A stretch of 32,000 bases of DNA from Sutcliffiella cohnii. Lineage in GTDB: Bacteria > Bacillota > Bacilli > Bacillales > Bacillaceae_I. The translations under genes and the position numbers were made by a program. Shown here piece by piece: positions 10,934 through 19,596 of this stretch. How positions within the stretch are numbered: position 1 is the first letter of the stretch; each line of letters begins with the position of its first letter. The stretch covers positions 3,870,869 through 3,902,868 of the forward strand of contig NZ_CP018866.1 in assembly GCF_002250055.1 (NCBI RefSeq), read 5' to 3'. The notes under the pieces were generated by a model. The model was given only the letters and a program-made list of their open reading frames with translations, made no database searches and was not told where the DNA came from.

Positions 10934-11833
10934 TTATACTTTTAAAAACTTACGGACAGACATCATACTACCCCAAATTCCGATAAACGCACCGATAGCA
11001 ACTAAAATGCCAACAACTTGGAATGCGAACGGGAAGAAAGGTAAGAATTGTAAAAATTGAGATGTTACTTTTGGTTGAACTAGATCAATGAGGTAATAGT
11101 ACGATGTTAAAATAATCGCAATTGGTAAAAATGCACCAAGAACACCTAACCAAAGACCTTCTAGGAAAAACGGCCAGCGGATAAACCAATTTGTTGCCCC
11201 TACTAGTTTCATAATTTCAATTTCTTTTCTTCTTGCAAAAATAGTTATTTTAATAGTGTTAGATATTAGGAACATCGCCGTAAATACTAACCCTAAAATT
11301 AATGCGAGTCCGATGTTACGAGCTATATTAAAGATTTGGAAGAGCCTTTCCACCGTTTCTTGACCAAACACTACTTTCGCAACATTGTCAAAGCCCTCAA
11401 TTTGTTTTGCTACATCAAAGGTATCTTGTGGAGTCTTTGTTTTGACAATAAACACATCATATAGTGGATTACTTTGTTCAAAAAGGTCTAAAATAGCGCC
11501 ATCTTCACCAAAGCTATCCTTTAAACTTTCTAATTCACTATCTTTAGATGAAAATACAACAGATTCAGCTTTCGAAACTTTTTCTAAATCTGCTTGTAAT
11601 TGATTTTGCTCTTCTTCTGTTGCTGTCATTTCTATATAAACTTTAATTTCAACGTCTTGTTCAATTTCCTTCGCCACGTTATTTAAGTTCATCATAATAA
11701 CGAGGAATACACCGACTAATAGTAGCGTTACAGTAACGGCACTAATGGATGCAAATGTCATCCAACCATTACGAGCTAAACTTTTGAAACTTTCTCTGAA
11801 ATGTCGGAGTAATGTTCTAGGCTTCATAGCCAT
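10934..11833 (-). CDS. ftsX: Cell-division ABC transporter permease-like protein FtsX
   Basis: 299 aa with one transmembrane helix, a large extracellular loop and three C-terminal transmembrane helices (FtsX topology). The start overlaps the ftsE stop by 17 nt. Confidence 0.92.
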   Translation of the reverse strand: MAMKPRTLLRHFRESFKSLARNGWMTFASISAVTVTLLLVGVFLVIMMNLNNVAKEIEQDVEIKVYIEMTATEEEQNQLQADLEKVSKAESVVFSSKDSELESLKDSFGEDGAILDLFEQSNPLYDVFIVKTKTPQDTFDVAKQIEGFDNVAKVVFGQETVERLFQIFNIARNIGLALILGLVFTAMFLISNTIKITIFARRKEIEIMKLVGATNWFIRWPFFLEGLWLGVLGAFLPIAIILTSYYYLIDLVQPKVTSQFLQFLPFFPFAFQVVGILVAIGAFIGIWGSMMSVRKFLKV

Positions 11834-12503
11834 AATCCCCCTTCACTTCGTCTCTAGCAATTTTTCCGTATTCTATTGCAATAACACGTCTTTTCATCGT
11901 GTTAACAATCTCTTTGTTGTGTGTTGCCATCACAATCGTCGTGCCTCGTTCATTAATTTCTTCGAACAACTTCATAATTTCCCATGAAGTATCAGGATCT
12001 AAATTCCCGGTAGGTTCATCGGCAATCATTACTTTCGGGTTATTAACGATAGATCGCGCGATAGATACACGCTGCTGTTCTCCACCTGAAAGTTCATTTG
12101 GAAAGGCTCTCGCTTTATGCTTTAGCTTTACTAAATCTAGCACTTCCATGACACGTTTTTTTATACTTTTTGGCGTTTCTTCAATAACTTCTAGCGCAAA
12201 TGCTACATTTTCATAAACTGTTAGTTGTGGTAACAGTTTAAAATCTTGGAACACGACGCCTATTTTTCTACGTAATAATGGAACGTGGCGCTCTTTAAGC
12301 TTAGATAAATCGATTCCGTCAATAATAATGGAACCGCTTGTCGGCTTTTCTTCGCGGTACATCATTTTAATAAATGTTGATTTCCCTGCACCACTAGGTC
12401 CTACGACGTAAGCAAATTCGCCTGCTTTAAATGTTATATCTATACCATTAACTGCTTGTACACCATTTGAATATTTTTTAAATACATTATGCATTTCAAT
12501 CAT
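11817..12503 (-). CDS. ftsE: Cell-division ABC transporter ATP-binding protein FtsE
   Basis: 228 aa with Walker A GPSGAGKST, signature LSGGEQQR and Walker B VMIADEPTGNLD. Length and context are those of FtsE. Confidence 0.95.
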   Translation of the reverse strand: MIEMHNVFKKYSNGVQAVNGIDITFKAGEFAYVVGPSGAGKSTFIKMMYREEKPTSGSIIIDGIDLSKLKERHVPLLRRKIGVVFQDFKLLPQLTVYENVAFALEVIEETPKSIKKRVMEVLDLVKLKHKARAFPNELSGGEQQRVSIARSIVNNPKVMIADEPTGNLDPDTSWEIMKLFEEINERGTTIVMATHNKEIVNTMKRRVIAIEYGKIARDEVKGDYGYEA

Positions 12504-12578: not shown

Positions 12579-12902
12579 AAACGGCAAGTATCCTCAATCT
12601 CAAAATTGTTCAGACTCATTATAACATCATATTCCGACAAAAAGAGCATTATTTATATTACATTTTCTTTTCAATTTAAAACGATTATTGGGAATATAGG
12701 TTTATTTTGTCATATTTCATCTTAATTTGGTAGAGGTAGAAAAAAATAATAGTTTTGTTGTGGGGGAAGTTTGAAATTTTTGTGTTTATTTTGATAGTAG
12801 CTGTGGGATCTTGCTTTTTTTCGTGGGGATGCTTTGACGTGAATGGACTTTGGATTGTGCTACCGGGGTCCTATTATAGGCTAAAGGAACTGTGGTATGC
12901 AT

Positions 12903-13238
12903 CAACTGAGCTACTTTTTCGGCCAACTGAGCTACTTTTTCGGCCAACTGAACGGGCTTTTACGCCAGCTGGGCTGCTTTTTCGGCCATCTGAACGGTTT
13001 TTTGCGCCAACTGATTCACTTTTTCGGCCAACTGAATGGACTTTTGCGCCAACTGAGCTACTTTTTCGGCCAACTGAACGAGCTTTTGCGCCAGCTGGGC
13101 TGCTTTTTCGGCCAACTGAACGGACTTTTGCGCCAACCGGGTTACTTTTTCGGCCAACTGAACGGACTTTTGCGCCAACCGGGTTACTTTTTCGGCCATC
13201 TGAACGGGTTTTTGCGCCAACCGTACGGACTTTTGTGC
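12903..13238. repeat. 21-bp-period tandem array 1 (16 units)
   Basis: There are 16 contiguous 21-bp units (336 bp). They tend to alternate ...CTTTTTCGGC and ...CTTTTGCGC endings, for example CAACTGAGCTACTTTTTCGGC and CAACTGAACGGACTTTTGCGC, giving a loose 42-bp doublet. The 5-6 nt between the conserved ends vary. Three overlapping ORFs on both strands are open across the array. Confidence 0.95.
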
Positions 13239-13290
13239 CAACTCATGTTTCAAAGCTTGTTGGCTCAGAATCATTACTACTAGTCTGGAC

Positions 13291-13329
13291 AAAAAAAGGT
13301 CCAAAAAGTTAATTTCTACTTTTTGGACC
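13291..13329 (-). terminator. Rho-independent terminator after the vpr-like gene
   Basis: A perfect 12-bp stem pairs GGTCCAAAAAGT (13298-13309) with ACTTTTTGGACC (13318-13329) around an 8-nt loop. An A7 run at 13291-13297 gives U7 on the minus strand. Confidence 0.85.
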
Positions 13330-13336
13330 ATTACTA

Positions 13337-15772
13337 TTATTCGATTGTTAATACATCTGCTGCTGCGACAGCACGTTCACCGTTGCCTTTTTTCGCATAG
13401 ATTGCCACGCGGTAGTTACCAGCAGGTAGTACGGTACCATCTACTAATGTACCATCCCACACATGCTCAGCATATCCAGCAGGAAGGTTAGAATCGTAAA
13501 GTGCATCTCCAACATAAGAACCTAATCCACCAGTTGCTGTTGCAGAGTAGATCCACACTTCGTACTCATCTGCGCCACCTGGTAAGTAAGACCAAATGTC
13601 GAATGTGTTGTTTCCTAAGCTATCGAACCCTAAAGAAGTTACTCGTGGGAAGTCTGGTTCACCTACGAATAGAATTGTAGGAACTTCTACTACTGTTTCA
13701 CCTTCTGTAACTGTTAAGTAGCCTTCATAATAGCCGGAGTCTAATTTAGAAGCATCTACTGTTACATTTACATTTACTTTTTGTGTTTTACCTGGGTTTA
13801 CTCTTGTATTGTTACTTGTTGTAACTTTTACATGTTTGCCTACTTCGTTTTTGAATGTGAATTCGACGTTGTAACGTTTAGCTTCATTAGAAAGGTTTTG
13901 GATTTCGAAATGTTGACGTGCACTTTCTTTTCCTTTTGCCTTTTCAAATACTCCGAAAGAATAGCTTCCAGGGTTAACTAATGTTTCTGCATTGATTGCA
14001 TCTAGTACACGGATACTACCAGCACCTTGTGTATTGTGTGGATAGCTTTCCCCAGTTGCTGGATTAATTAGATCTTCTGCAGTATTCATTAACGCAGATT
14101 TTACTTGGAATACATCCCAATCAGGATTAGCTTGTAATACTAATGCCGCTGCTCCTGCTACGTGTGGACTTGCCATTGAAGTACCTTGCTTTGCTCCGTA
14201 TCCGTATGGATTTGATGGATCAAATGTTGGTACTGTACTTACGATTGCAACACCAGGTGCTGAAACGTCAGGCTTGATCATCCAAGTATCCATTACTGGA
14301 CCACGAGATGAGAAGTCTGCTACTGTTTCACCTACTTGGTGAGAAAATGCAATGTTAAAGCTTACTGTTACGTCATTAACTTTTGCTTTTAACGCTTCCC
14401 CATCTGCTTGGTTAAGCATAATTGTTGGAACGTCCATTCCTGGAATTAGTGGCATATCACCAGCTACGTTATTGTAAAGAACTGCACCAACTGCGCCAGC
14501 TTTTTTAGCTTCTGTCGCTTTGTCCACGAATGGGATACCTGCTCCACGGCTAATTAATGCGATTTTACCTTCTAATTCTTTACCTGCAAACTCTGCTGGA
14601 GAACCAAAGCCTACATCTACTAAATCAAAGTTTTGTCCATTTAAAGCCTTTAACGCATCTTCAGATGGGAATCCTTGAACTGCTGAGGAAGCGTAAGATA
14701 CTCCGTCAGAAGAAGTTGTTGTTGCTGTAAATACGTTGTACGGTAATTGAGTTGCACCAACAGAGATAGCATCGCGAGAAGTTCCAGGAGAACCTACTGT
14801 CCAGTTGTTTGGACCGCTATTTCCGTTAGAAGTTACTGCTACTACACCTTCTGCCATTGCCCAATCTAATGCGATAGACGTTGCAAAGTCAGGGCTGTTT
14901 AACGTGTTACCTAAAGATAGGTTCATAACATCAGCGCCATCTTGAACTGCGCGCTCAATACCTGCGATAACGTTAGCTGTCGTACCGCTACCACCAGGTC
15001 CTAAAACACGGTATGCTAAAAGCGTCGCTTCTGGAGCTACCCCTTTAATTAGACCGTTCGCTGCTACTGTACCTGCAACGTGTGTACCGTGAGTTGTTTC
15101 TGCACCACGCGGATCATTTTTAGGTGTTTCTTGTGGATCTTCGTCGTTATCTACGAAATCATATCCTTTGTAAGCACCAAATTGTCCAGCTAAATCTGGG
15201 TGTGTGTAATCTACACCAGTATCGATAACTGCTACTGTTACACCTTCACCAGTGAAACCTGCATCCCAAGCTTCGTTAGAACCGATAAATGGAGCGGAAT
15301 CTAACATTTCTGGGCTATAAGATTCTTCTACAACATATTCAGTGGAAGAATCTACTGTATATGTAACGTTCGGATAAACTGCTTTTACGCCAGGAGTTGC
15401 TAGTAAGCTAGGAATCTCGTTTTGTGGAACTTCCACAGCGAAACCAGAAAATACGTAATCATATTCACGTTCTACTTTTGAAGTAGAAACACGTTTCCCA
15501 ACTTCATTTTTTACTTGGTTACGAACATTATTCAAGTTTTTCTTCGTTTGTGCTTTTCCTTTATGCTTTGCTTCGACAAGAGACTCTTCTTCTAGTTCGA
15601 CAATAACTGTTGTCGGCTTCGAGCTAGATAAATCATACTCGCCGTATAGAGTTGCTAATTCTTCTACTTTAGTTACTTTCCCTTGGTTCACTTGTGCACC
15701 AGCAGAAAAAGAACTAAACACTAATAGGATGGCACTAACAATCATTAGTGCTGTAACCAGTTTGTTACGCAA
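13337..15772 (-). CDS. vpr: Secreted S8 subtilisin-family serine protease with PA-domain insertion, Vpr-like
   Basis: It has a signal peptide, an I9-like propeptide and the catalytic motifs VIDTGVDYTHPDL (Asp), HGTHVAGTVAANG (His) and GTSMASPHVAGAAAL (Ser). A PA-type insertion lies between His and Ser. Length and blocks are very close to B. subtilis Vpr. The start is either TTG at 15772 (GGGGAG 8 nt upstream) or GTG at 15781. Confidence 0.85.
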   Translation of the reverse strand: MRNKLVTALMIVSAILLVFSSFSAGAQVNQGKVTKVEELATLYGEYDLSSSKPTTVIVELEEESLVEAKHKGKAQTKKNLNNVRNQVKNEVGKRVSTSKVEREYDYVFSGFAVEVPQNEIPSLLATPGVKAVYPNVTYTVDSSTEYVVEESYSPEMLDSAPFIGSNEAWDAGFTGEGVTVAVIDTGVDYTHPDLAGQFGAYKGYDFVDNDEDPQETPKNDPRGAETTHGTHVAGTVAANGLIKGVAPEATLLAYRVLGPGGSGTTANVIAGIERAVQDGADVMNLSLGNTLNSPDFATSIALDWAMAEGVVAVTSNGNSGPNNWTVGSPGTSRDAISVGATQLPYNVFTATTTSSDGVSYASSAVQGFPSEDALKALNGQNFDLVDVGFGSPAEFAGKELEGKIALISRGAGIPFVDKATEAKKAGAVGAVLYNNVAGDMPLIPGMDVPTIMLNQADGEALKAKVNDVTVSFNIAFSHQVGETVADFSSRGPVMDTWMIKPDVSAPGVAIVSTVPTFDPSNPYGYGAKQGTSMASPHVAGAAALVLQANPDWDVFQVKSALMNTAEDLINPATGESYPHNTQGAGSIRVLDAINAETLVNPGSYSFGVFEKAKGKESARQHFEIQNLSNEAKRYNVEFTFKNEVGKHVKVTTSNNTRVNPGKTQKVNVNVTVDASKLDSGYYEGYLTVTEGETVVEVPTILFVGEPDFPRVTSLGFDSLGNNTFDIWSYLPGGADEYEVWIYSATATGGLGSYVGDALYDSNLPAGYAEHVWDGTLVDGTVLPAGNYRVAIYAKKGNGERAVAAADVLTIE

Positions 15773-16038
15773 TGGACCCACTCCCCTTTTTAACTATTCT
15801 TACAGCTAACGTCGCAACATTAGACTGCAATCGACACTAATTTCCTACAATTATTTCGGAAACTAAAATAAATTATATTTTTAATTATTTAAATATTCAA
15901 TAGAGTTTGAAATAAACAGGATGAAAGTCCAAGCTGTTTTTTGAAAAATAGATATTGAGGCATGATTTTTAATTTCGAAGGTTAGTGCTAATTACTTATG
16001 TTTTGAAAAAAGACGAGGGGGAAACTACATAGAAATAG

Positions 16039-16071
16039 AAAAAACTCCCCAATGATTTTTCACTGAGAAGT
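16039..16071 (-). terminator. Rho-independent terminator after cccB
   Basis: A 12-bp stem with three G-U pairs joins 16044-16055 to 16060-16071 around a 4-nt loop. On the minus strand it is followed by U5. Confidence 0.65.
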
Positions 16072-16086
16072 TTTGTACTAGGACTT

Positions 16087-16425
16087 TTATTTATGTTCTG
16101 CTAACCATGCAGCAACAGTAGATGCTTCTTCACCTTTTAAGAAGCCACCACGCATATTACCTTGTCCATTTAAAATAATGTCTTCAATTTCTTCTTTAGA
16201 ATATTTATTTCCTACTTGCGATAGTTGTGGTCCGAAGCCACCTTCTAAATTACCACCGTGACAGCTTTGACAGCTTTGTTGATATAGCTTTTCAGCATCT
16301 GCACTGACAGCATCGCCTGTTGCATCTTGTGCAGGAGCTTCCGTTGCATTATCTCCTCCACCACCACAAGCACCAAGGACAATGAGAGTACTAACGAAAA
16401 CGAATGTTAATAACCATTTTTTCAA
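16087..16425 (-). CDS. cccB: Membrane-anchored (lipoprotein) cytochrome c-551
   Basis: It has a CQSCHG haem-binding motif and a lipobox (LGAC) after a short hydrophobic N-terminus. The preferred TTG start at 16425 lies 7 nt after AAGGGGGA and gives 112 aa. The track ORF extends to 16473. Confidence 0.85.
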   Translation of the reverse strand: MKKWLLTFVFVSTLIVLGACGGGGDNATEAPAQDATGDAVSADAEKLYQQSCQSCHGGNLEGGFGPQLSQVGNKYSKEEIEDIILNGQGNMRGGFLKGEEASTVAAWLAEHK

Positions 16426-16520
16426 GGTAAAATCCCCCTTAGCAATAATTTTGTAGTTAAAAAGGATGCGCATTCCTTATACTTAAAAAATACCACATTC
16501 CATTGGTTATTATAACCATC

Positions 16521-17393
16521 CTACTCCCGTTTAAACCCTTCTCCTAACACTTCTGAAGCATTCATAACGACGACAAAAGCAGACGCATCAATGCTTTGCA
16601 CCACTTGTTTCAACTTTGTGAATTCTTGCTGATTTACTACACACATAAGCACCGGCTTTTCATTTAAAGTGTATCCACCATGGGCTGTTAGCTTTGTCAC
16701 ACCGCGATCTAATTTTGTTAGTATTGCTTCACGAACTTCCGCTTCTTTTTCGGAAATGATAATAATTGTCTTCGAATATCCGATACCGACTTGAACCATA
16801 TCAATTGTTTTACTTGTTACGTATAGAGATAAAAGCGCGTATAAACCAAGTTCAATATCAAAAACAATTGCAGCAGAAATTACAATTAAACCGTCGATAA
16901 TGGCAACGCACGTCCCTAGAGATAGCCCGGTATATTTATGTATAATTTGCGCTGCTAAGTCCGTTCCTCCTGTAGACGCTCTTCCTCTAAACACAAGCCC
17001 AAGCCCAATTCCGACCCCAATTCCTCCGAAAAGACTTGCAAGTAACGGATCCATCGTCGCAGGTTGAATATCTCTCGTCCATAAAACCATTAATGGAAGT
17101 GTTACCGTTCCTACTAACGTTTTTAATCCAAACTGACGTCCTAGTAAAACGACTCCTGCAAAAAATAGCGGAATATTAAAAGATAATTGAACGATACCAG
17201 GTTCCCAGCCTAACACTGCATTTAATATAGTACTAATTCCACTAACTCCACCCGATGCTACACGGTTAGGAAGTAAAAATAAATTAAAAGCTAACGCGAC
17301 AAAAGCCGCTCCGATAATAACGTACCCATATTCTTTCGCCCTTTGCATAAATGGGCTGTCTACTTTTCGATCATTCTTTTTACGTTTGCTCAA
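16521..17393 (-). CDS. yvjA: YitT-family membrane protein with C-terminal DUF2179 domain (YvjA-like)
   Basis: It has multiple transmembrane helices with GGVSGI and GGTDL motifs, and a soluble C-terminal domain. The track ORF starts with TTG at 17408, but that codon is part of the GGAGGGAG ribosome-binding site. The preferred start is TTG at 17393. The position between cccB and prfB matches B. subtilis yvjA. Confidence 0.85.
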   Translation of the reverse strand: MSKRKKNDRKVDSPFMQRAKEYGYVIIGAAFVALAFNLFLLPNRVASGGVSGISTILNAVLGWEPGIVQLSFNIPLFFAGVVLLGRQFGLKTLVGTVTLPLMVLWTRDIQPATMDPLLASLFGGIGVGIGLGLVFRGRASTGGTDLAAQIIHKYTGLSLGTCVAIIDGLIVISAAIVFDIELGLYALLSLYVTSKTIDMVQVGIGYSKTIIIISEKEAEVREAILTKLDRGVTKLTAHGGYTLNEKPVLMCVVNQQEFTKLKQVVQSIDASAFVVVMNASEVLGEGFKRE

Positions 17394-17565
17394 AGATGCT
17401 CCCTCCAACTACGCTAACATATAAACCACAAACAGAAAGAGTATAGCACGCACTTTTTTCGATGTAAACGATGCTCGAATAACGTGTTAAAGCGCTAAAA
17501 GTTAGTTTGTGGTAAGAGGGGGAATTTCATGCATGGGTAGAGGGGGAGGGTGGTGGGTTTTTACG

Positions 17566-18425
17566 GAAACCAGGCTTCGTTTTGTGTAGACCGAATGGTT
17601 TTTGTGCCAACTGAGTTCGGCTTTGTGCCAACCGGATTCGCTTTTGCGTCAATCGAGATCACTTTTGCGCCAATCGAGCTGGCTTTTGTGCCAACCGGAT
17701 TCGCTTTTGTGCCAACTGAGTTCATTTTTGCGCCAATCGAGCTGGCTTTTGTGCCAACCGGATTCGCTTTTGTGCCAACCGAGTTCACTTTTGCGTCAAT
17801 CGAGCTGGCTTTCGTGCCAACCGGATTCGCTTTTGTGCCAACCGAGTTCGGCTTTGTGCCAACCGGATTCGCTTTCACGCCAACTACAACACGGTTTCGG
17901 CCAAACTGACTTCCTTTCACGCCAACTGCAACGCGGTTTCGGCCAAACCGACTTCCTTTCACGCCAACTGCAACACGGTTTCGGCCAACTCGACTTCCTT
18001 TCACGCCAACTACAACGTGTTTTCGGCCAAACTGACTTCCTTTCACGCCAACTGCAACGCGGTTTCGGCCAACTCGACTTCCTTTCACGCCAACTACAAC
18101 ACGGTTTCGGCCAAACTGACTTCCTTTCACGCCAACTGCAACGCGGTTTCGGCCAAACCGACTTCCTTTCACGCCAACTGCAACGCGGTTTCGGCCAAAC
18201 CGACTTCCTTTCACGCCAACTACAACGTGTTTTCGGCCAACTCGACTTCCTTTCACGCCAACTGCAACGCGGTTTCGGCCAAACCGACTTCCTTTCACGC
18301 CAACTGCAACACTATTTCAGCCAACCGAACTCACTTATTGATGCACTTGCGGATTTAATTGACGCACACGGCCAATTTTTTGACGCAGCTGAAAAATTAA
18401 TTGACGCACTTGACGTTATTTTTAA
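17566..18425. repeat. 21-bp-period tandem array 2 (39 in-phase units plus ~2 degenerate leading units; three sequence families)
   Basis: 17607-18425 is exactly 39 x 21 bp with no phase slip. Family A (17607-17879) has 13 units such as CCAACCGGATTCGCTTTTGTG, with a 63-bp super-repeat. Family B (17880-18299) has ten 42-bp doublets. Family C (18300-18425) has six diverged units ending ...TTGA|CGCA. Four overlapping ORFs on both strands run through it. Confidence 0.95.
17880..18299. repeat. Family-B sub-array: ten near-identical 42-bp doublets
   Basis: The unit is CCAACT(A/G)CAAC(AC/GC/GT)G(G/T)TTTCGG CCAA(ACT/ACC/CTC)GACTTCCTTTCACG. All differences between copies fall at these few positions. 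Four of the ten copies contain the perfect palindromic hairpin CGGTTTCGGCCAAACCG. Confidence 0.95.
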
Positions 18426-18450: not shown

Positions 18451-18485
18451 AAAAACAAAACCCCTGCCGCGTTGCACGACAAGGG
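18451..18485 (-). terminator. Rho-independent terminator after prfB
   Basis: On the minus strand the hairpin CCCTTGTCG...CGGCAGGGG (plus coordinates 18461-18485, includes G-U pairs) is followed by TTTTGTTTTT (18451-18460). It begins 12 nt after the stop codon. Confidence 0.7.
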
Positions 18486-18497
18486 TAGGAATGACAA

Positions 18498-19596
18498 TTA
18501 AATTTTTGAACGTAAATATGCATCAATGAACGGATCGAGTTCGCCGTCCATGACTGATTGTGTGTTTCCGATTTCTGTGTTGGTACGGTGATCTTTTACA
18601 AGGGAATAAGGGTGGAAAACATAGGAACGAATTTGACTTCCCCAGCCAATGTCTTTTTGTTCGCCACGGATTTCATCTAATTCCGCTTGTTGCTCTTCTA
18701 GTTTACGTTGATAAAGTTTTGCTTGGAGCATTTTCATCGCACGTTCACGGTTTTTAATTTGGGAACGTTCTGTTTGACACGTTACGACTACATTCGTTGG
18801 AATGTGTGTAATACGGACTGCGGAGTCAGTTGTGTTAATATGCTGACCACCTGCTCCACTTGCACGGTACGTATCAATTTTTAAATCTTCCGTGCGGATG
18901 TCGATTTCAATTTCATCATTAAACTCTGGCATTACGTCGCAAGATACGAACGACGTATGACGACGGCCGGATGAGTCAAATGGAGAAATACGTACAAGAC
19001 GGTGCACTCCTTTTTCTGCCTTCAAATACCCGTATGCGTTATGCCCTTTAATTAAAAGAGTTACGCTTTTAATTCCAGCTTCATCACCTGGAAGGTAATC
19101 TAACGTTTCTACTTTGAAACCTTTTTTCTCTGCCCAGCGTGTGTACATACGTAGTAGCATAGAGCCCCAGTCTTGAGATTCCGTTCCACCAGCGCCAGGA
19201 TGCAATTCTAAAATCGCATTATTTTTATCGTAAGGCTCGCTTAATAAAAGCTGTAGTTCAAATTTATTAAACTCACCTGTTAGTTCTTTTACTTCATTTA
19301 CTAGTTCAGCTAGCAGTTCTTCGTCTGGCTCTTCTTTCACTAGCTCATACGTTACATCTAAGTTTTCATAGCTTTCATGAAGTTCATGAAATTGACCAAC
19401 TGAATCTTTTAACGCATTCGCCTCACTAATTACTACTTGGGCTGCGTTTTGATCATCCCAAAAGTTAGGATGACTCATAAGCTCATCTAATTCGGCGACT
19501 CTCTTTTCCTTATGTTCTAAGTCAAAGAGACCCCCTAAAGTCCGCTAAACGTTTAGCCATTTTCTCAAGTTCGTTTCTAATTTCTGCAAGTTCCAT
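18498..19596 (-). CDS. prfB: Peptide chain release factor 2, expressed through a programmed +1 frameshift
   Basis: Frame 0 runs from ATG at 19596 ([24 protein letters not shown]) to an in-frame TGA at 19524-19522. The +1 frame continues [22 protein letters not shown]... into the 326-aa track ORF, which carries SPF and GGQ motifs. Confidence 0.95.
19521..19536 (-). promoter_or_regulatory. prfB: RF2 autoregulatory +1 frameshift site (SD-like AGGGGG, then CTT TGA C)
   Basis: The minus strand reads AGGGGG TCT CTT TGA C. AGGGGG is at plus coordinates 19531-19536 and CTTTGAC at 19521-19527. This is the canonical prfB recoding signal. Confidence 0.9.

What the first reader, a model, noticed from the sequence alone, without database searches (positions are those of the whole stretch)
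12903..18425. The two arrays are one family: shared core, same orientation, same context, and phased T-tracts
Three properties link the two arrays.
- Both carry the T-tract / GCCAA(C) core on the plus strand. In one plus-strand frame, array 1 and family A both read as x-P-T-(E/G)-x-x-F heptads.
- Relative to the minus-strand genes, each array begins within about 25-55 bp past an intrinsic terminator (vpr: 13291-13329; prfB: 18451-18485). Each ends a few hundred bp before the next gene start.
- T3-5 tracts recur every 21 bp, which is in phase with the DNA helix. Phased A/T tracts are known to add up to intrinsic curvature.

My inference is that the arrays act at the DNA level. They could be a curved or protein-coated insulator between transcription units, or an array of sites on one helical face for a nucleoid-associated protein. 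The two arrays are direct repeats bracketing the vpr-cccB-yvjA block, so recombination between them is conceivable. vpr is not at this locus in B. subtilis.
Basis: partly seen in the sequence, partly recalled or inferred. Interest (0 to 1): 0.6.

Follow-up and report, generated by a model that had tools for sequence, protein, structure and literature searches.

The report
21-bp repeat arrays with nuclease partner
The two repeat arrays are real, non-coding members of a published but unexplained class of fixed-length (21-base) Bacillus repeats. In this genome each repeat family sits in front of the gene of its own uncharacterised DNA-cutting protein, which gives the class a testable partner.

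Summary
Observation confirmed. Array 1 (12903-13242) and array 2 (17580-18425) share a TTTT-nn-GCCAAC-yG core, one orientation and a strict 21-bp register.

They are 2 of 15 GCCAAC arrays and 81 arrays of 20-21/42-bp period (at least 8 core families) in this 4.9-Mb Sutcliffiella cohnii-like chromosome. The class is published (Subirana & Messeguer 2020/2021), with function unknown.

They are not coding, match no Rfam family and fold no better than shuffles. They lie between a terminator and the next promoter.

New here:
- **Replichore polarity:** 62 of 70 arrays follow it. It recurs in two Sutcliffiella genomes but not in a more distant one.
- **Terminus gap:** 1.06 Mb holds no array.
- **Hot spot:** the prfB-yvjA gap carries unrelated arrays across genera.
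- **Partner protein:** all three NERD + zinc-ribbon + helix-turn-helix-like nuclease paralogues have an array of a different family directly upstream. The GCCAAC one lies 12 kb beyond the window.

In relatives, 24 of 30 such genes have upstream arrays. The putative recognition helix changes with the repeat core. A fourth, decayed paralogue matches the orphan TTACTTAACA family.

Earlier follow-ups of this scan found the nuclease link on other DNA; I re-tested it here.

Binding, cleavage and function are untested.

The parts
12903..13242 (+). Array 1: 16 units of 21 bp. TTTTTCGGCCAACTG and TTTTGCGCCAACTG units alternate, giving a 42/126-bp higher-order period. T-form on the + strand, which is the A-form GTTGGC..AAAA on the leading (gene-sense) strand.
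17580..17878 (+). Array 2, part A: about 14 units TTTTG(T/C)GCCAA(C/T)CG with a 63-bp higher-order period.
17879..18331 (+). Array 2, part B: about 11 doublets of 42 bp (TTTCACGCCAACTGCAACGCGG / TTTCGGCCAAACCGACTTCC), in the same register as part A.
18332..18425 (+). Array 2, part C: 4 units of the TTGACGCAC sub-family, still in the 21-bp register. TTGA-CGCAC aligns with TCGG-CCAAC, so this is a diverged variant of the same unit.
13298..13329 (-). Intrinsic terminator hairpin plus T-run of the vpr-like gene, about 55 bp before array 1 in the direction of transcription.
18460..18486 (-). Intrinsic terminator of prfB, about 35 bp before array 2 in the direction of transcription.
17440..17468 (-). 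Promoter-like site (TTTACA-17-TATACT with TG) between array 2 and the yvjA-like start. It places the array upstream of the promoter, outside the transcript.
   Evidence: consensus match only
12684..12720 (-). Promoter-like sites between array 1 and the ftsE start.
   Evidence: consensus match only
18498..19478 (-). prfB (main frame), the upstream gene of array 2.
16521..17408 (-). yvjA-like (YitT/DUF2179) gene downstream of array 2. The gap before it is a recurrent array site in Bacillaceae.
13337..15781 (-). vpr-like subtilase gene upstream of array 1.
11817..12503 (-). ftsE, downstream of array 1.

Best explanation
**What the arrays are (shown)**
The two arrays are copies of the GCCAAC family. 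This is one of at least eight families of non-coding tandem arrays with a fixed 20-21-bp unit in this Sutcliffiella cohnii-like chromosome. They belong to the published class of 'constant-size, variable-sequence' Bacillus tandem repeats.
- Each unit has a conserved core of about 14 bp (cTTTTnnGCCAACyG) and about 7 variable bases.
- The arrays fill the dead zone between a terminator and the next promoter.
- Their A-rich strand is the leading strand.
- An array of the same family lies directly upstream of a gene at G000:3915128-3916102, about 12 kb beyond the window. That gene encodes a 324-aa protein with a NERD (PD-(D/E)xK) nuclease domain with intact D81/E94/K96, a CxxC-x14-CxxC zinc ribbon and a C-terminal three-helix plus hairpin domain.

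**How it probably works (inferred)**
- Each 21-bp unit is one binding site for that protein. The core is read by the C-terminal domain.
- Two helical turns per unit put successive protomers on one face of the DNA. That would make the period a property of the protein and not of the sequence.
- The array in front of the gene would serve autoregulation or cis-action.
- The dispersed arrays, including the two in the window, are further cognate sites. They were seeded and resized by slippage or recombination, possibly stimulated by the nuclease. The logic resembles REP sequences and their RAYT.

What the bound arrays do for the cell is not known. Candidates are a barrier between transcription units, a polar interaction with replication, or nothing (a selfish pair).
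For: **Non-coding and DNA-level**
- There is no Rfam match, and RNA folding gives z = +1.5 and +1.1.
- No Pfam family passes its cut-off.
- Arrays of the same class with 20- and 41-bp periods cannot keep a reading frame.

**Core under constraint**
- Over 363 units from 15 arrays, the T-tract and the AAC-yG flank keep 0.6-1.5 bits.
- The spacer keeps only 0.2-0.4 bits.

**Gene-array pairing in this genome**
- Three of three NERD-Zn-ribbon paralogues have an array directly upstream. The families differ: GCCAAC, TGTTGAACAGAA and TGGTGCAAC.
- Only 1.1% of genes have an array within 400 bp upstream.

**Pairing in relatives**
- 24 of 30 best-hit loci have a 20-21/40-42-bp array upstream, against 6 of 30 downstream.
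- Phased core words occur in nearly all of them.
- In five genomes, dispersed arrays share the core of the array in front of a paralogue of the same genome: G000, G013, G024, G018 and G009.
- The 81%-identical orthologue in Sutcliffiella sp. NC1 has 26.7 units of TCGGTTGGCGCAAAAGTGAAT upstream.

**Co-variation with the protein**
- The putative recognition helix (residues 294-304) is 82-100% identical within a core group and 7-36% identical between groups.
- For the same pairs, the NERD domain stays 34-64% identical.

**A decayed fourth paralogue**
- G000 holds a pseudogene fragment 74% identical to the C-terminus of a protein whose own gene is preceded by TTACTTAACA arrays. The match includes the helix CRVDASRQLSK.
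- G000 keeps 12 TTACTTAACA arrays.

**Co-occurrence**
- 200-kb samples of two genomes without the gene hold 0 and 0 arrays of the class.
- Samples of two genomes with 7-8 paralogues hold 12 and 12.

**Structure**
- The AlphaFold model has pLDDT 90.6. Its nuclease domain weakly resembles Can2, Bax1, the R2 endonuclease and Hjc.
Against: - **No experiment.** Binding and cleavage are inferred from adjacency and co-variation only.
- **Shared descent.** Orthologues inherit their upstream array, so part of the co-variation is not independent evidence.
- **C-terminal fold.** No solved structure matches it significantly. The best E-value is 0.37. The top hits are OmpR/PhoB-type winged helices and zinc ribbons.
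- **Families without a partner.** GATAAATAAA and CGCAAATAA have no partner gene in this assembly.
- **Orphan arrays.** TTACTTAACA arrays persist although their putative partner is a pseudogene. Arrays therefore do not need the protein to stay, at least for a while.
- **Dispensable sites.** Presence or absence in the prfB-yvjA gap varies among close Sutcliffiella species, which argues against an essential local function.
- **Polarity not universal.** Replichore polarity is absent in a more distant genome with TTATGCG arrays.
Confidence: 0.58

Rival explanations
1. Neutral or selfish minisatellites with no protein partner. The arrays arise and turn over by replication slippage and unequal recombination wherever they do no harm, that is, between terminator and promoter. 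The arrays next to NERD genes are one more such site, or only that gene's own operator.
For: - Array edges are degenerate, and higher-order periods of 42, 63 and 126 bp occur.
- The families are lineage-specific. The GCCAAC pattern was found in none of 22 same-family genomes.
- Presence and absence varies among close species.
- Arrays are depleted in divergent promoter gaps, as for most bacterial intergenic repeats.
- TTACTTAACA arrays outlive their putative partner.
Against: - The period stays fixed at 20-21 bp across unrelated sequences and genera.
- The core is conserved while the spacer is nearly random.
- Three of three paralogues in G000 and 24 of 30 in relatives have upstream arrays of the cognate family.
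- The recognition helix co-varies with the core.
- Genomes without the gene had no such arrays in the samples.
Confidence: 0.17
2. The arrays are intrinsically curved DNA, or sites for an abundant nucleoid-associated protein. They act as insulators between transcription units, recognised by shape (phased T-tracts) and not by sequence.
For: - A T3-6 tract recurs every 21 bp in both arrays.
- GCCAAC arrays are predicted to be strongly curved. End-to-end over contour length is 0.71-0.75, against a control median of 0.93 and a 5th percentile of 0.79-0.80. A period-26 control abolishes the effect.
- The arrays sit just past terminators.
- Subirana & Messeguer also propose nucleoid proteins (PMC8161180).
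Against: - Curvature is not common to the class. Only 15 of 58 arrays fall below the control 5th percentile, and several families are not curved.
- A shape reader would not explain family-specific conserved cores, or their pairing with separate paralogues.
- The wedge parameters were recalled from memory and were not checked against their source.
Confidence: 0.12
3. RNA-level function. The arrays are transcribed, by read-through or from their own promoter, and act as small RNAs or as a sponge for an RNA-binding protein. This has been proposed for the 52-nt Bacillus repeats.
For: - Transcription of 52-nt repeats in B. coagulans is reported (PMC8161180, PMC8625621).
- Most arrays are co-oriented with the flanking genes.
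Against: - The arrays lie downstream of intrinsic terminators and upstream of the next promoter-like sites.
- Neither strand folds better than shuffles, and there is no Rfam match.
- In the four arrays where both flanking genes run against replication, orientation follows the replichore and not the genes.
- RNA data could not be consulted.
Confidence: 0.05
4. The arrays encode heptad-repeat proteins, for example the minus-strand QLAEKVx ORF in array 1 or the 245-299-aa ORFs in array 2.
For: - Long open frames exist, and one has coiled-coil-like heptads.
- A crude codon-usage gene caller accepts one of them.
Against: - Three to four of the six frames are open at once, as expected for a stop-free 21-bp unit.
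- The heptad frame of array 1 is broken by a stop codon.
- No Pfam family passes its cut-off.
- Sister arrays of the same class have 20- and 41-bp periods.
- The variable bases do not respect codon positions.
Confidence: 0.01

Closest known systems
Constant-size (20-21 nt) variable-sequence tandem repeats of Bacillus (Subirana & Messeguer, J Bacteriol 2020; Int J Mol Sci 2021, PMC8161180)
   Same: - The unit is 20-21 nt, with 40-42 nt doublets.
- Several species-specific families occur per genome.
- A short conserved signal sits inside each unit.
- The arrays are non-coding and abundant in some Bacillaceae and absent in others.
   Different: - The held 2021 paper does not mention orientation, the leading strand, terminators or intergenic context, and names no partner protein.
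- Added here: polarity, a terminus gap, association with gene 3' ends, a recurrent site, and a candidate nuclease partner.
- The 2020 paper could not be read.
REP/REPIN sequences and their RAYT (TnpA-REP) in Gammaproteobacteria
   Same: - One protein gene is flanked by its own repeat family, and dozens of cognate copies are dispersed in intergenic 3' regions.
- Several protein-repeat pairs occur per genome.
- Orphan repeats remain after gene loss.
- Copies are rare between divergent genes.
   Different: - The protein is a PD-(D/E)xK NERD nuclease with a zinc ribbon, not an HUH Y1 transposase.
- The repeats are non-palindromic head-to-tail arrays with a strict 21-bp phase, not hairpins.
- No mobilisation has been shown.
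Iterons and OmpR/PhoB-type direct-repeat operators
   Same: Direct repeats of a short core are spaced at whole helical turns (about 11 or about 22 bp), so winged-helix proteins line up head-to-tail on one face. The best, though non-significant, fold matches of the C-terminal domain are AdeR, PhoP, PhoB and YycF.
   Different: The arrays hold 10-50 units, lie far from any replication origin or regulated promoter, occur at about 80 sites, and the protein carries a nuclease domain.
Polar chromosomal sequences (Ter/RTP sites, KOPS/SRS, Chi)
   Same: Orientation flips between the replichores.
   Different: - The arrays are long tandem arrays specific to a family and a lineage, not a single conserved short word.
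- They are depleted near the terminus, not concentrated there.
- Polarity is not seen in every genome.

Membership tests
Constant-size 20-21-nt tandem repeats of Bacillus (Subirana & Messeguer) | Tandem unit of 20-21 nt (or 40-42 nt doublets) kept constant while the sequence varies between families | tested here: met
   81 arrays have their best autocorrelation at 20, 21 or 41-42 bp, in at least 8 core families. The window arrays hold a strict 21-bp register.
Constant-size 20-21-nt tandem repeats of Bacillus (Subirana & Messeguer) | Non-coding | tested here: met
   The arrays are intergenic. Several frames are open at once and the heptad frame carries a stop. No Pfam family passes its cut-off. 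Sister arrays have 20- and 41-bp periods.
Constant-size 20-21-nt tandem repeats of Bacillus (Subirana & Messeguer) | Families specific to a species or lineage, with a short conserved signal in every unit | tested here: met
   The GCCAAC triple pattern gave 124 hits in G000. It gave 0 hits in 22 same-family genomes and 1 hit in 18 genomes of other families.
REP-RAYT-like nuclease/repeat partnership (works-like comparison, not membership) | The repeat family is adjacent to the gene of its cognate protein, one family per paralogue | tested here: met
   Three of three paralogues in G000. 24 of 30 loci in relatives. The NC1 orthologue has the same core.
REP-RAYT-like nuclease/repeat partnership (works-like comparison, not membership) | HUH/Y1 transposase and palindromic REP hairpins | tested here: not met
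   The protein is NERD / PD-(D/E)xK. The units are not palindromic, and the strands fold no better than shuffles.
REP-RAYT-like nuclease/repeat partnership (works-like comparison, not membership) | The protein binds and cleaves its repeat | not testable with these tools
   This needs a gel shift, a footprint and a nicking assay.
NERD (PF08378) PD-(D/E)xK nucleases (the partner protein) | NERD profile match with the catalytic D...ExK | tested here: met
   PF08378 scores 60.7-74.9 bits against a cut-off of 22.1. D81, E94 and K96 are invariant in 11 sequences. Foldseek gives weak hits to PD-(D/E)xK nucleases.
Winged helix-turn-helix DNA-binding domains (C-terminus of the partner protein) | Three-helix bundle plus beta-hairpin wing, with structural similarity to solved wHTH domains | tested here: inconclusive
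   The full model shows H266-277, H284-291 and H296-302, then strands 307-309 and 316-318, at pLDDT above 89. For the isolated domain model (pLDDT 73) the best Foldseek E-value is 0.37, to AdeR, PhoP and PhoB DNA-binding domains.
Intrinsically curved DNA (phased A/T tracts) | A/T tracts in phase with the helix and predicted curvature above background | tested here: met
   Met for the GCCAAC family only. Not general to the class.

The most novel reading that the evidence does not exclude
The fixed-length 20-21-bp repeats of Bacillaceae are the cognate DNA of a family of NERD + zinc-ribbon + winged-helix nucleases, with one paralogue per repeat family. The protein's footprint sets the two-turn period. 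The protein-array pairs form a chromosome-wide system that is polar with respect to replication and excluded from the terminus region. The system would either be a new kind of selfish nuclease/satellite partnership or a new layer of chromosome organisation.
Probability: 0.45. Interest if true: 0.85.

Novelty: new member of a known kind. Interest (0 to 1): 0.62.

Why it matters
Repeats of constant size and variable sequence were catalogued in 2019-2021 as enigmatic. No partner, position rule or function was known.

This genome gives the question concrete handles:
- a named candidate protein for the very family found in the window;
- a specificity code to test (recognition helix against repeat core);
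- natural controls, namely orphan arrays of a decayed paralogue and related genomes without gene or arrays;
- chromosome-scale regularities (replichore polarity, a terminus gap, a recurrent site after prfB) that any functional model must explain.

If the pairing holds, it would be a Firmicute counterpart of the REP-RAYT relationship, built from different parts.

Tried and rejected
- **Coding:** rejected. Several frames are open at once, the heptad frame has a stop, and there are no families.
- **Structured RNA:** rejected. There is no Rfam hit at E <= 1, and folding z-scores are positive.
- **Transposon-like ends:** flanks of the 15 GCCAAC and 6 TTGACGCA arrays share no unique sequence. They show only decaying units and the neighbour's terminator.
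- **Recombination deleting the vpr-cccB-yvjA block:** unlikely. The longest exact match is 13 bp at about 70% identity, and vpr lies at this locus throughout the clade.
- **Array 1's position conserved?** No. Only 1 of 23 relatives has an array upstream of ftsE. This served as an internal control for the prfB-yvjA gap.
- **Polarity universal?** No. The TTATGCG arrays of G026 lie in both orientations between co-directional genes.
- **Curvature as a class property?** No.
- **Defence-system membership of the NERD protein:** no PADLOC family and no NCBIfam family passes its cut-off.
- **The 52-nt array of G009 as a dispersed family:** it matched only itself.
- **The J Bacteriol 2020 paper:** not held.
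- **Literature link between NERD and these repeats:** none found in the held library.
Full report
**1. The observation**

The window is G000:C1:3870869-3902868 of a 4.90-Mb single-contig chromosome with 35.8% G+C. All genes in the region lie on the minus strand. In order they are secA, prfB, a yvjA-like gene, cccB, a vpr-like subtilase, ftsE and ftsX.

Tandem Repeats Finder reports array 1 at 12913-13242 with periods of 21, 42 and 126 bp. It reports array 2 at 17600-18328 with periods of 21, 63 and 42 bp.

Written in rows of 21, array 2 keeps one register from 17606 to 18425. It has 34 GCCAA-type units, then four TTGACGCAC units whose TTGA-CGCAC aligns with TCGG-CCAAC. Array 1 has 16 units in one register. 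Every unit carries a T3-6 tract at a constant phase.

Intrinsic terminators of vpr and prfB lie about 55 bp and about 35 bp before the arrays in the sense of transcription. Promoter-like sites lie between each array and the next start codon.

**2. Not coding, not a structured RNA**

- Three or four of the six frames are open across the arrays, and the coiled-coil-like minus frame of array 1 is broken by TAA.
- No Pfam family passes its cut-off.
- No Rfam family matches at E <= 1.
- Both strands of array 1 fold no better than dinucleotide shuffles, with z = +1.5 and +1.1.

**3. Genome-wide picture**

TRF over the whole chromosome finds 81 arrays whose best autocorrelation is at 20, 21 or 41-42 bp. 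They fall into core families:

| Core | Arrays |
|---|---|
| GCCAAC | 15 |
| TTGACGCA | 6 |
| TTACTTAACA | 12 |
| GATAAATAAA | 9 |
| CGCAAATAA | 13 |
| TGTTGAACAGAA | 7 |
| CACATAAA | 6 |
| TGGTGCAAC | 4 |

A few arrays fit none of these. TTGACGCA units regularly abut GCCAAC arrays, and CACATAAA arrays abut TGTTGAACAGAA arrays.

Over 363 GCCAAC-family units, the T-tract and the AAC-yG flank keep 0.6-1.5 bits. The remaining seven positions keep 0.2-0.4 bits. The anchor GCCA itself is circular in this measure.

**4. This is a published class**

Their 2021 paper (PMC8161180) describes tandem repeats of constant size (20-21 or 52 nt) and variable sequence in Bacillus. The families are species-specific, each unit holds a short conserved signal, and the function is unknown. 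The authors suggest a nucleoid protein that polymerises on the DNA, or small RNAs.

That paper contains no mention of orientation, the leading strand, terminators or intergenic context. Their 2019 and October 2021 papers likewise do not discuss orientation, terminators or the leading strand. The J Bacteriol 2020 paper is not held.

**5. Position rules in this genome**

dnaA lies at 4,595,920. Cumulative GC skew has its minimum at 4.59 Mb and its maximum at 2.35 Mb. A crude ORF- and codon-based gene call gives 4,538 genes, of which 78% are co-oriented with replication.

- **Polarity.**
  - After merging arrays split by an insertion sequence, 62 of 70 arrays have the family's majority orientation relative to the leading strand. 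The unmerged count is 64 of 72, with permutation p <= 5e-6.
  - Without any family definition, the A-rich strand is the leading strand in 68 of 81 arrays (p = 4e-10).
  - In five arrays both flanking genes seemed to run against replication, and all five follow the replichore. One of the five is flanked by an insertion sequence, so four clean cases remain.
- **Gene 3' ends.**
  - Array loci lie in 51 co-directional, 18 convergent and 5 divergent gaps. Expectation is 48, 11 and 15 (chi-square p = 0.003).
  - The median distance to a facing 3' end is 103 bp, against 191 bp to a facing 5' end (p = 2e-6).
  - Where my simple scan finds a terminator, the array starts a median of 64 bp after it.
- **Terminus gap.** The largest array-free stretch is 1.06 Mb (2.08-3.14 Mb, around the terminus), with p about 3e-5 under uniform placement. 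Intergenic gaps themselves are evenly spread.

**6. Is polarity general?**

In G026 (same order, another family) the TTATGCG arrays lie in both orientations between co-directional genes on one replichore. There the answer is no.

In two Sutcliffiella genomes I compared 200-kb samples on either side of dnaA. Words that recur in right-replichore arrays appear as reverse complements in 14 of 17 left-replichore arrays (7 of 9 in G018, 7 of 8 in G009; p = 0.013). This includes the 52-nt arrays. The A-rich strand is the leading strand in 41 of 59 arrays.

Polarity is thus a property of this clade and not of the class as a whole. Kin are not independent, and the gene-orientation confound is resolved only by the four cases in G000.

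**7. Relatives and the prfB-yvjA gap**

The GCCAAC pattern is confined to G000 among 41 genomes searched. The nearest relatives are Sutcliffiella species.

Many relatives nevertheless carry an array of a different sequence but the same size class (20-21, 40-42 or 52 bp) in the syntenic prfB-to-yvjA gap. Across 80 Bacillaceae loci, the gap upstream of yvjA holds a non-ORF tandem array in 13 of 72 genomes. Other gaps of the same loci hold one in 4 of 175 cases (odds ratio 9.4, p = 4e-5; kin not independent).

Empty gaps measure about 210-240 bp and filled ones about 430-610 bp. The gap upstream of ftsE has an array in only 1 of 23 relatives. Array 2 therefore sits at a recurrent site with rapid sequence turnover, and array 1 does not.

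**8. Curvature**

I used three wedge models whose parameters I recalled from memory: Bolshoy-Trifonov, AA-wedge and De Santis. Arrays 1 and 2A bend 16-27 degrees per 21 bp. Their end-to-end over contour length is 0.62-0.85 over 126 bp, which is 4-9 SD from shuffles. A period-26 control is straight.

Across families, only GCCAAC lies clearly beyond ordinary intergenic DNA, at 0.71-0.75 against a control 5th percentile of 0.79-0.80. In all, 15 of 58 arrays fall below that percentile. Any sequence repeated at two helical turns adds its bend coherently. Curvature is real for this family but is not a class property.

**9. The partner protein**

Earlier follow-ups of this scan on other genomes (e1-3142348, e1-5245909, e1-4132950) reported that such arrays sit beside genes for a NERD + zinc-ribbon + winged-helix nuclease. 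I tested this here.

*In G000*
- G000 has five NERD genes. Three share one architecture (307-324 aa, 32-34% identical).
- Each of these three has an array directly upstream:

| Gene (G000 coordinates, strand) | Upstream array |
|---|---|
| 3915128-3916102 (-) | GCCAAC array at 3916294-3917021 |
| 4793642-4794595 (+) | TGTTGAACAGAA array at 4792581-4793448 |
| 2913049-2913972 (-) | Eight TGGTGCAAC words at 21-bp spacing |

- Only 1.1% of genes have a listed array within 400 bp upstream.

*The protein*
- Pfam sees only NERD, at residues 42-155.
- D81, E94, K96 and the four zinc-ribbon cysteines are invariant in 11 sequences.
- The AlphaFold model (pLDDT 90.6) shows the nuclease fold, a zinc ribbon and a C-terminal three-helix plus hairpin domain.
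- Foldseek gives only weak matches (E 2e-3 and above) to PD-(D/E)xK nucleases: Can2, VC1899, the R2 endonuclease, Bax1 and Hjc.
- The isolated C-terminal domain gives non-significant top hits to OmpR/PhoB-type winged helices and zinc ribbons.
- No PADLOC or NCBIfam family fits. No paper in the held library links NERD to these repeats.

*In relatives*
- The gene is present in 31 of 41 genomes searched, G000 included, with 2-8 matches per Sutcliffiella genome.
- 24 of 30 best-hit loci have a 20-21/40-42-bp array upstream, against 6 of 30 downstream. Phased core words are seen in nearly all of them.
- Dispersed arrays share the core of the array in front of a paralogue in the same genome:
  - CGGGCGAAA in G013, including its prfB-yvjA array;
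  - TTAGACCGAAT in G024, likewise;
  - GGCACGAAC in G018;
  - TTCTTGATATAT in G009.
- The 81%-identical orthologue of Sutcliffiella sp. NC1 lies between degU and degV. It has 26.7 units of TCGGTTGGCGCAAAAGTGAAT upstream.
- Within a core group the putative recognition helix is 82-100% identical. Between groups it is 7-36% identical, while the NERD domain stays 34-64% identical.
- 200-kb samples of two genomes without the gene hold no arrays of the class. Two genomes with 7-8 paralogues hold 12 each.

**10. Orphan arrays**

A 47%-identical relative from a metagenome contig has TTACTTAACA arrays upstream. G000 holds a pseudogene fragment at 4095681-4095959 that is 74% identical to that protein's C-terminus. 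The match includes the helix CRVDASRQLSK. The fragment has an in-frame stop and a broken zinc ribbon.

G000 still has 12 TTACTTAACA arrays. This supports the pairing. It also shows that arrays can outlive their protein.

GATAAATAAA and CGCAAATAA have no partner in this assembly. Similar cores stand before paralogues in G015 and G037.

**11. Reading**

Shown:
- The arrays are a non-coding, phase-locked family of a published class.
- They lie in terminator-to-promoter spacers.
- They are polar with respect to replication in this clade.
- Each of three nuclease paralogues carries a separate family in front of its gene, and the helix co-varies with the core.

Inferred:
- The 21-bp unit is the protein's binding site.
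- The two-turn period reflects its footprint.
- The dispersed arrays are cognate sites.

Unknown:
- whether the nuclease cuts them;
- how arrays reach new sites;
- what they do.

A sequence-specific nuclease paralogue fits the data better than a general nucleoid protein or curvature alone.

**12. Limits**

- Gene calls and terminator calls come from my own crude scripts.
- The wedge parameters were recalled from memory.
- Comparisons among relatives are not phylogenetically independent.

Noticed in passing
G000 genome, outside the window: IS copies starting at 508103, 1379319, 1703731, 3136523, 3980435, 4066337, 4322932, 4347xxx: All 8 copies of an IS256-family insertion sequence (391-aa transposase, identical copies) sit inside CGCAAATAA-family 20-bp arrays. 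Each has an 8-bp target duplication in the A-rich part of a unit (for example AAATAAAA). The IS lies in either orientation relative to the array. This looks like a strong target preference for this repeat family.
   Followed up: partly
G000:4095681-4096044 (minus strand), outside the window: A truncated pseudogene of a fourth NERD/zinc-ribbon paralogue. Only the C-terminus remains, with an in-frame stop and lost zinc-ribbon cysteines. It is 74% identical to a metagenomic protein whose gene is preceded by TTACTTAACA arrays.
   Followed up: yes
window 17580-18425 and syntenic loci L003-L021, L064-L136: The gap between prfB and the yvjA-like gene holds tandem arrays of unrelated sequence but the same size classes in Sutcliffiella, Metabacillus, Neobacillus and Peribacillus. 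The count is 13 of 72 genomes, against 4 of 175 other gaps in the same loci. Some 42/126-bp repeats in Metabacillus and Thermolongibacillus gaps of about 890 bp may be coding, and I did not resolve them.
   Followed up: partly
G000 genome 2.08-3.14 Mb: No array of the class lies in a 1.06-Mb stretch around the replication terminus, although intergenic gaps are evenly spread. One NERD paralogue with TGGTGCAAC words upstream lies inside this stretch, at 2913049-2913972.
   Followed up: partly
G000 genome, e.g. 49939-51346, 222419-225137, 269046-270545, 285932-286924, 4792581-4793448: Composite arrays with periods of 103-114 bp are built from three to five 21-bp sub-units (TGTTGAACAGAA or CACATAAA cores) plus a non-repeated segment. 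The two core types lie side by side at several loci.
   Followed up: no
G000 genome, e.g. 593879, 752994, 861485, 965291, 2604941, 3639261, 3705958, 4422486 (about 153-155 bp) and 207628, 3092460, 4447224, 4618092 (about 121-126 bp): Two further dispersed tandem repeat families have long G+C-rich units that contain CCTCCGCTTTTC / GAAAAGCGGAGG. They are unrelated to the 21-bp class and are probably hairpin-type intergenic elements.
   Followed up: no
G009 and G018 (Sutcliffiella) 200-kb samples, loci L193-L232: 52-nt arrays co-exist with 20-21-nt arrays and show the same flip of orientation between replichores. No partner gene was sought for the 52-nt class.
   Followed up: partly
window 17516-17560: A G-run-rich stretch (GGGGG, GGGGGAGGGTGGTGGG) lies at the promoter-side edge of array 2, and a similar GTGGGGGAAG lies about 140 bp beyond array 1. 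Flanks of the other GCCAAC arrays show no common motif.
   Followed up: partly
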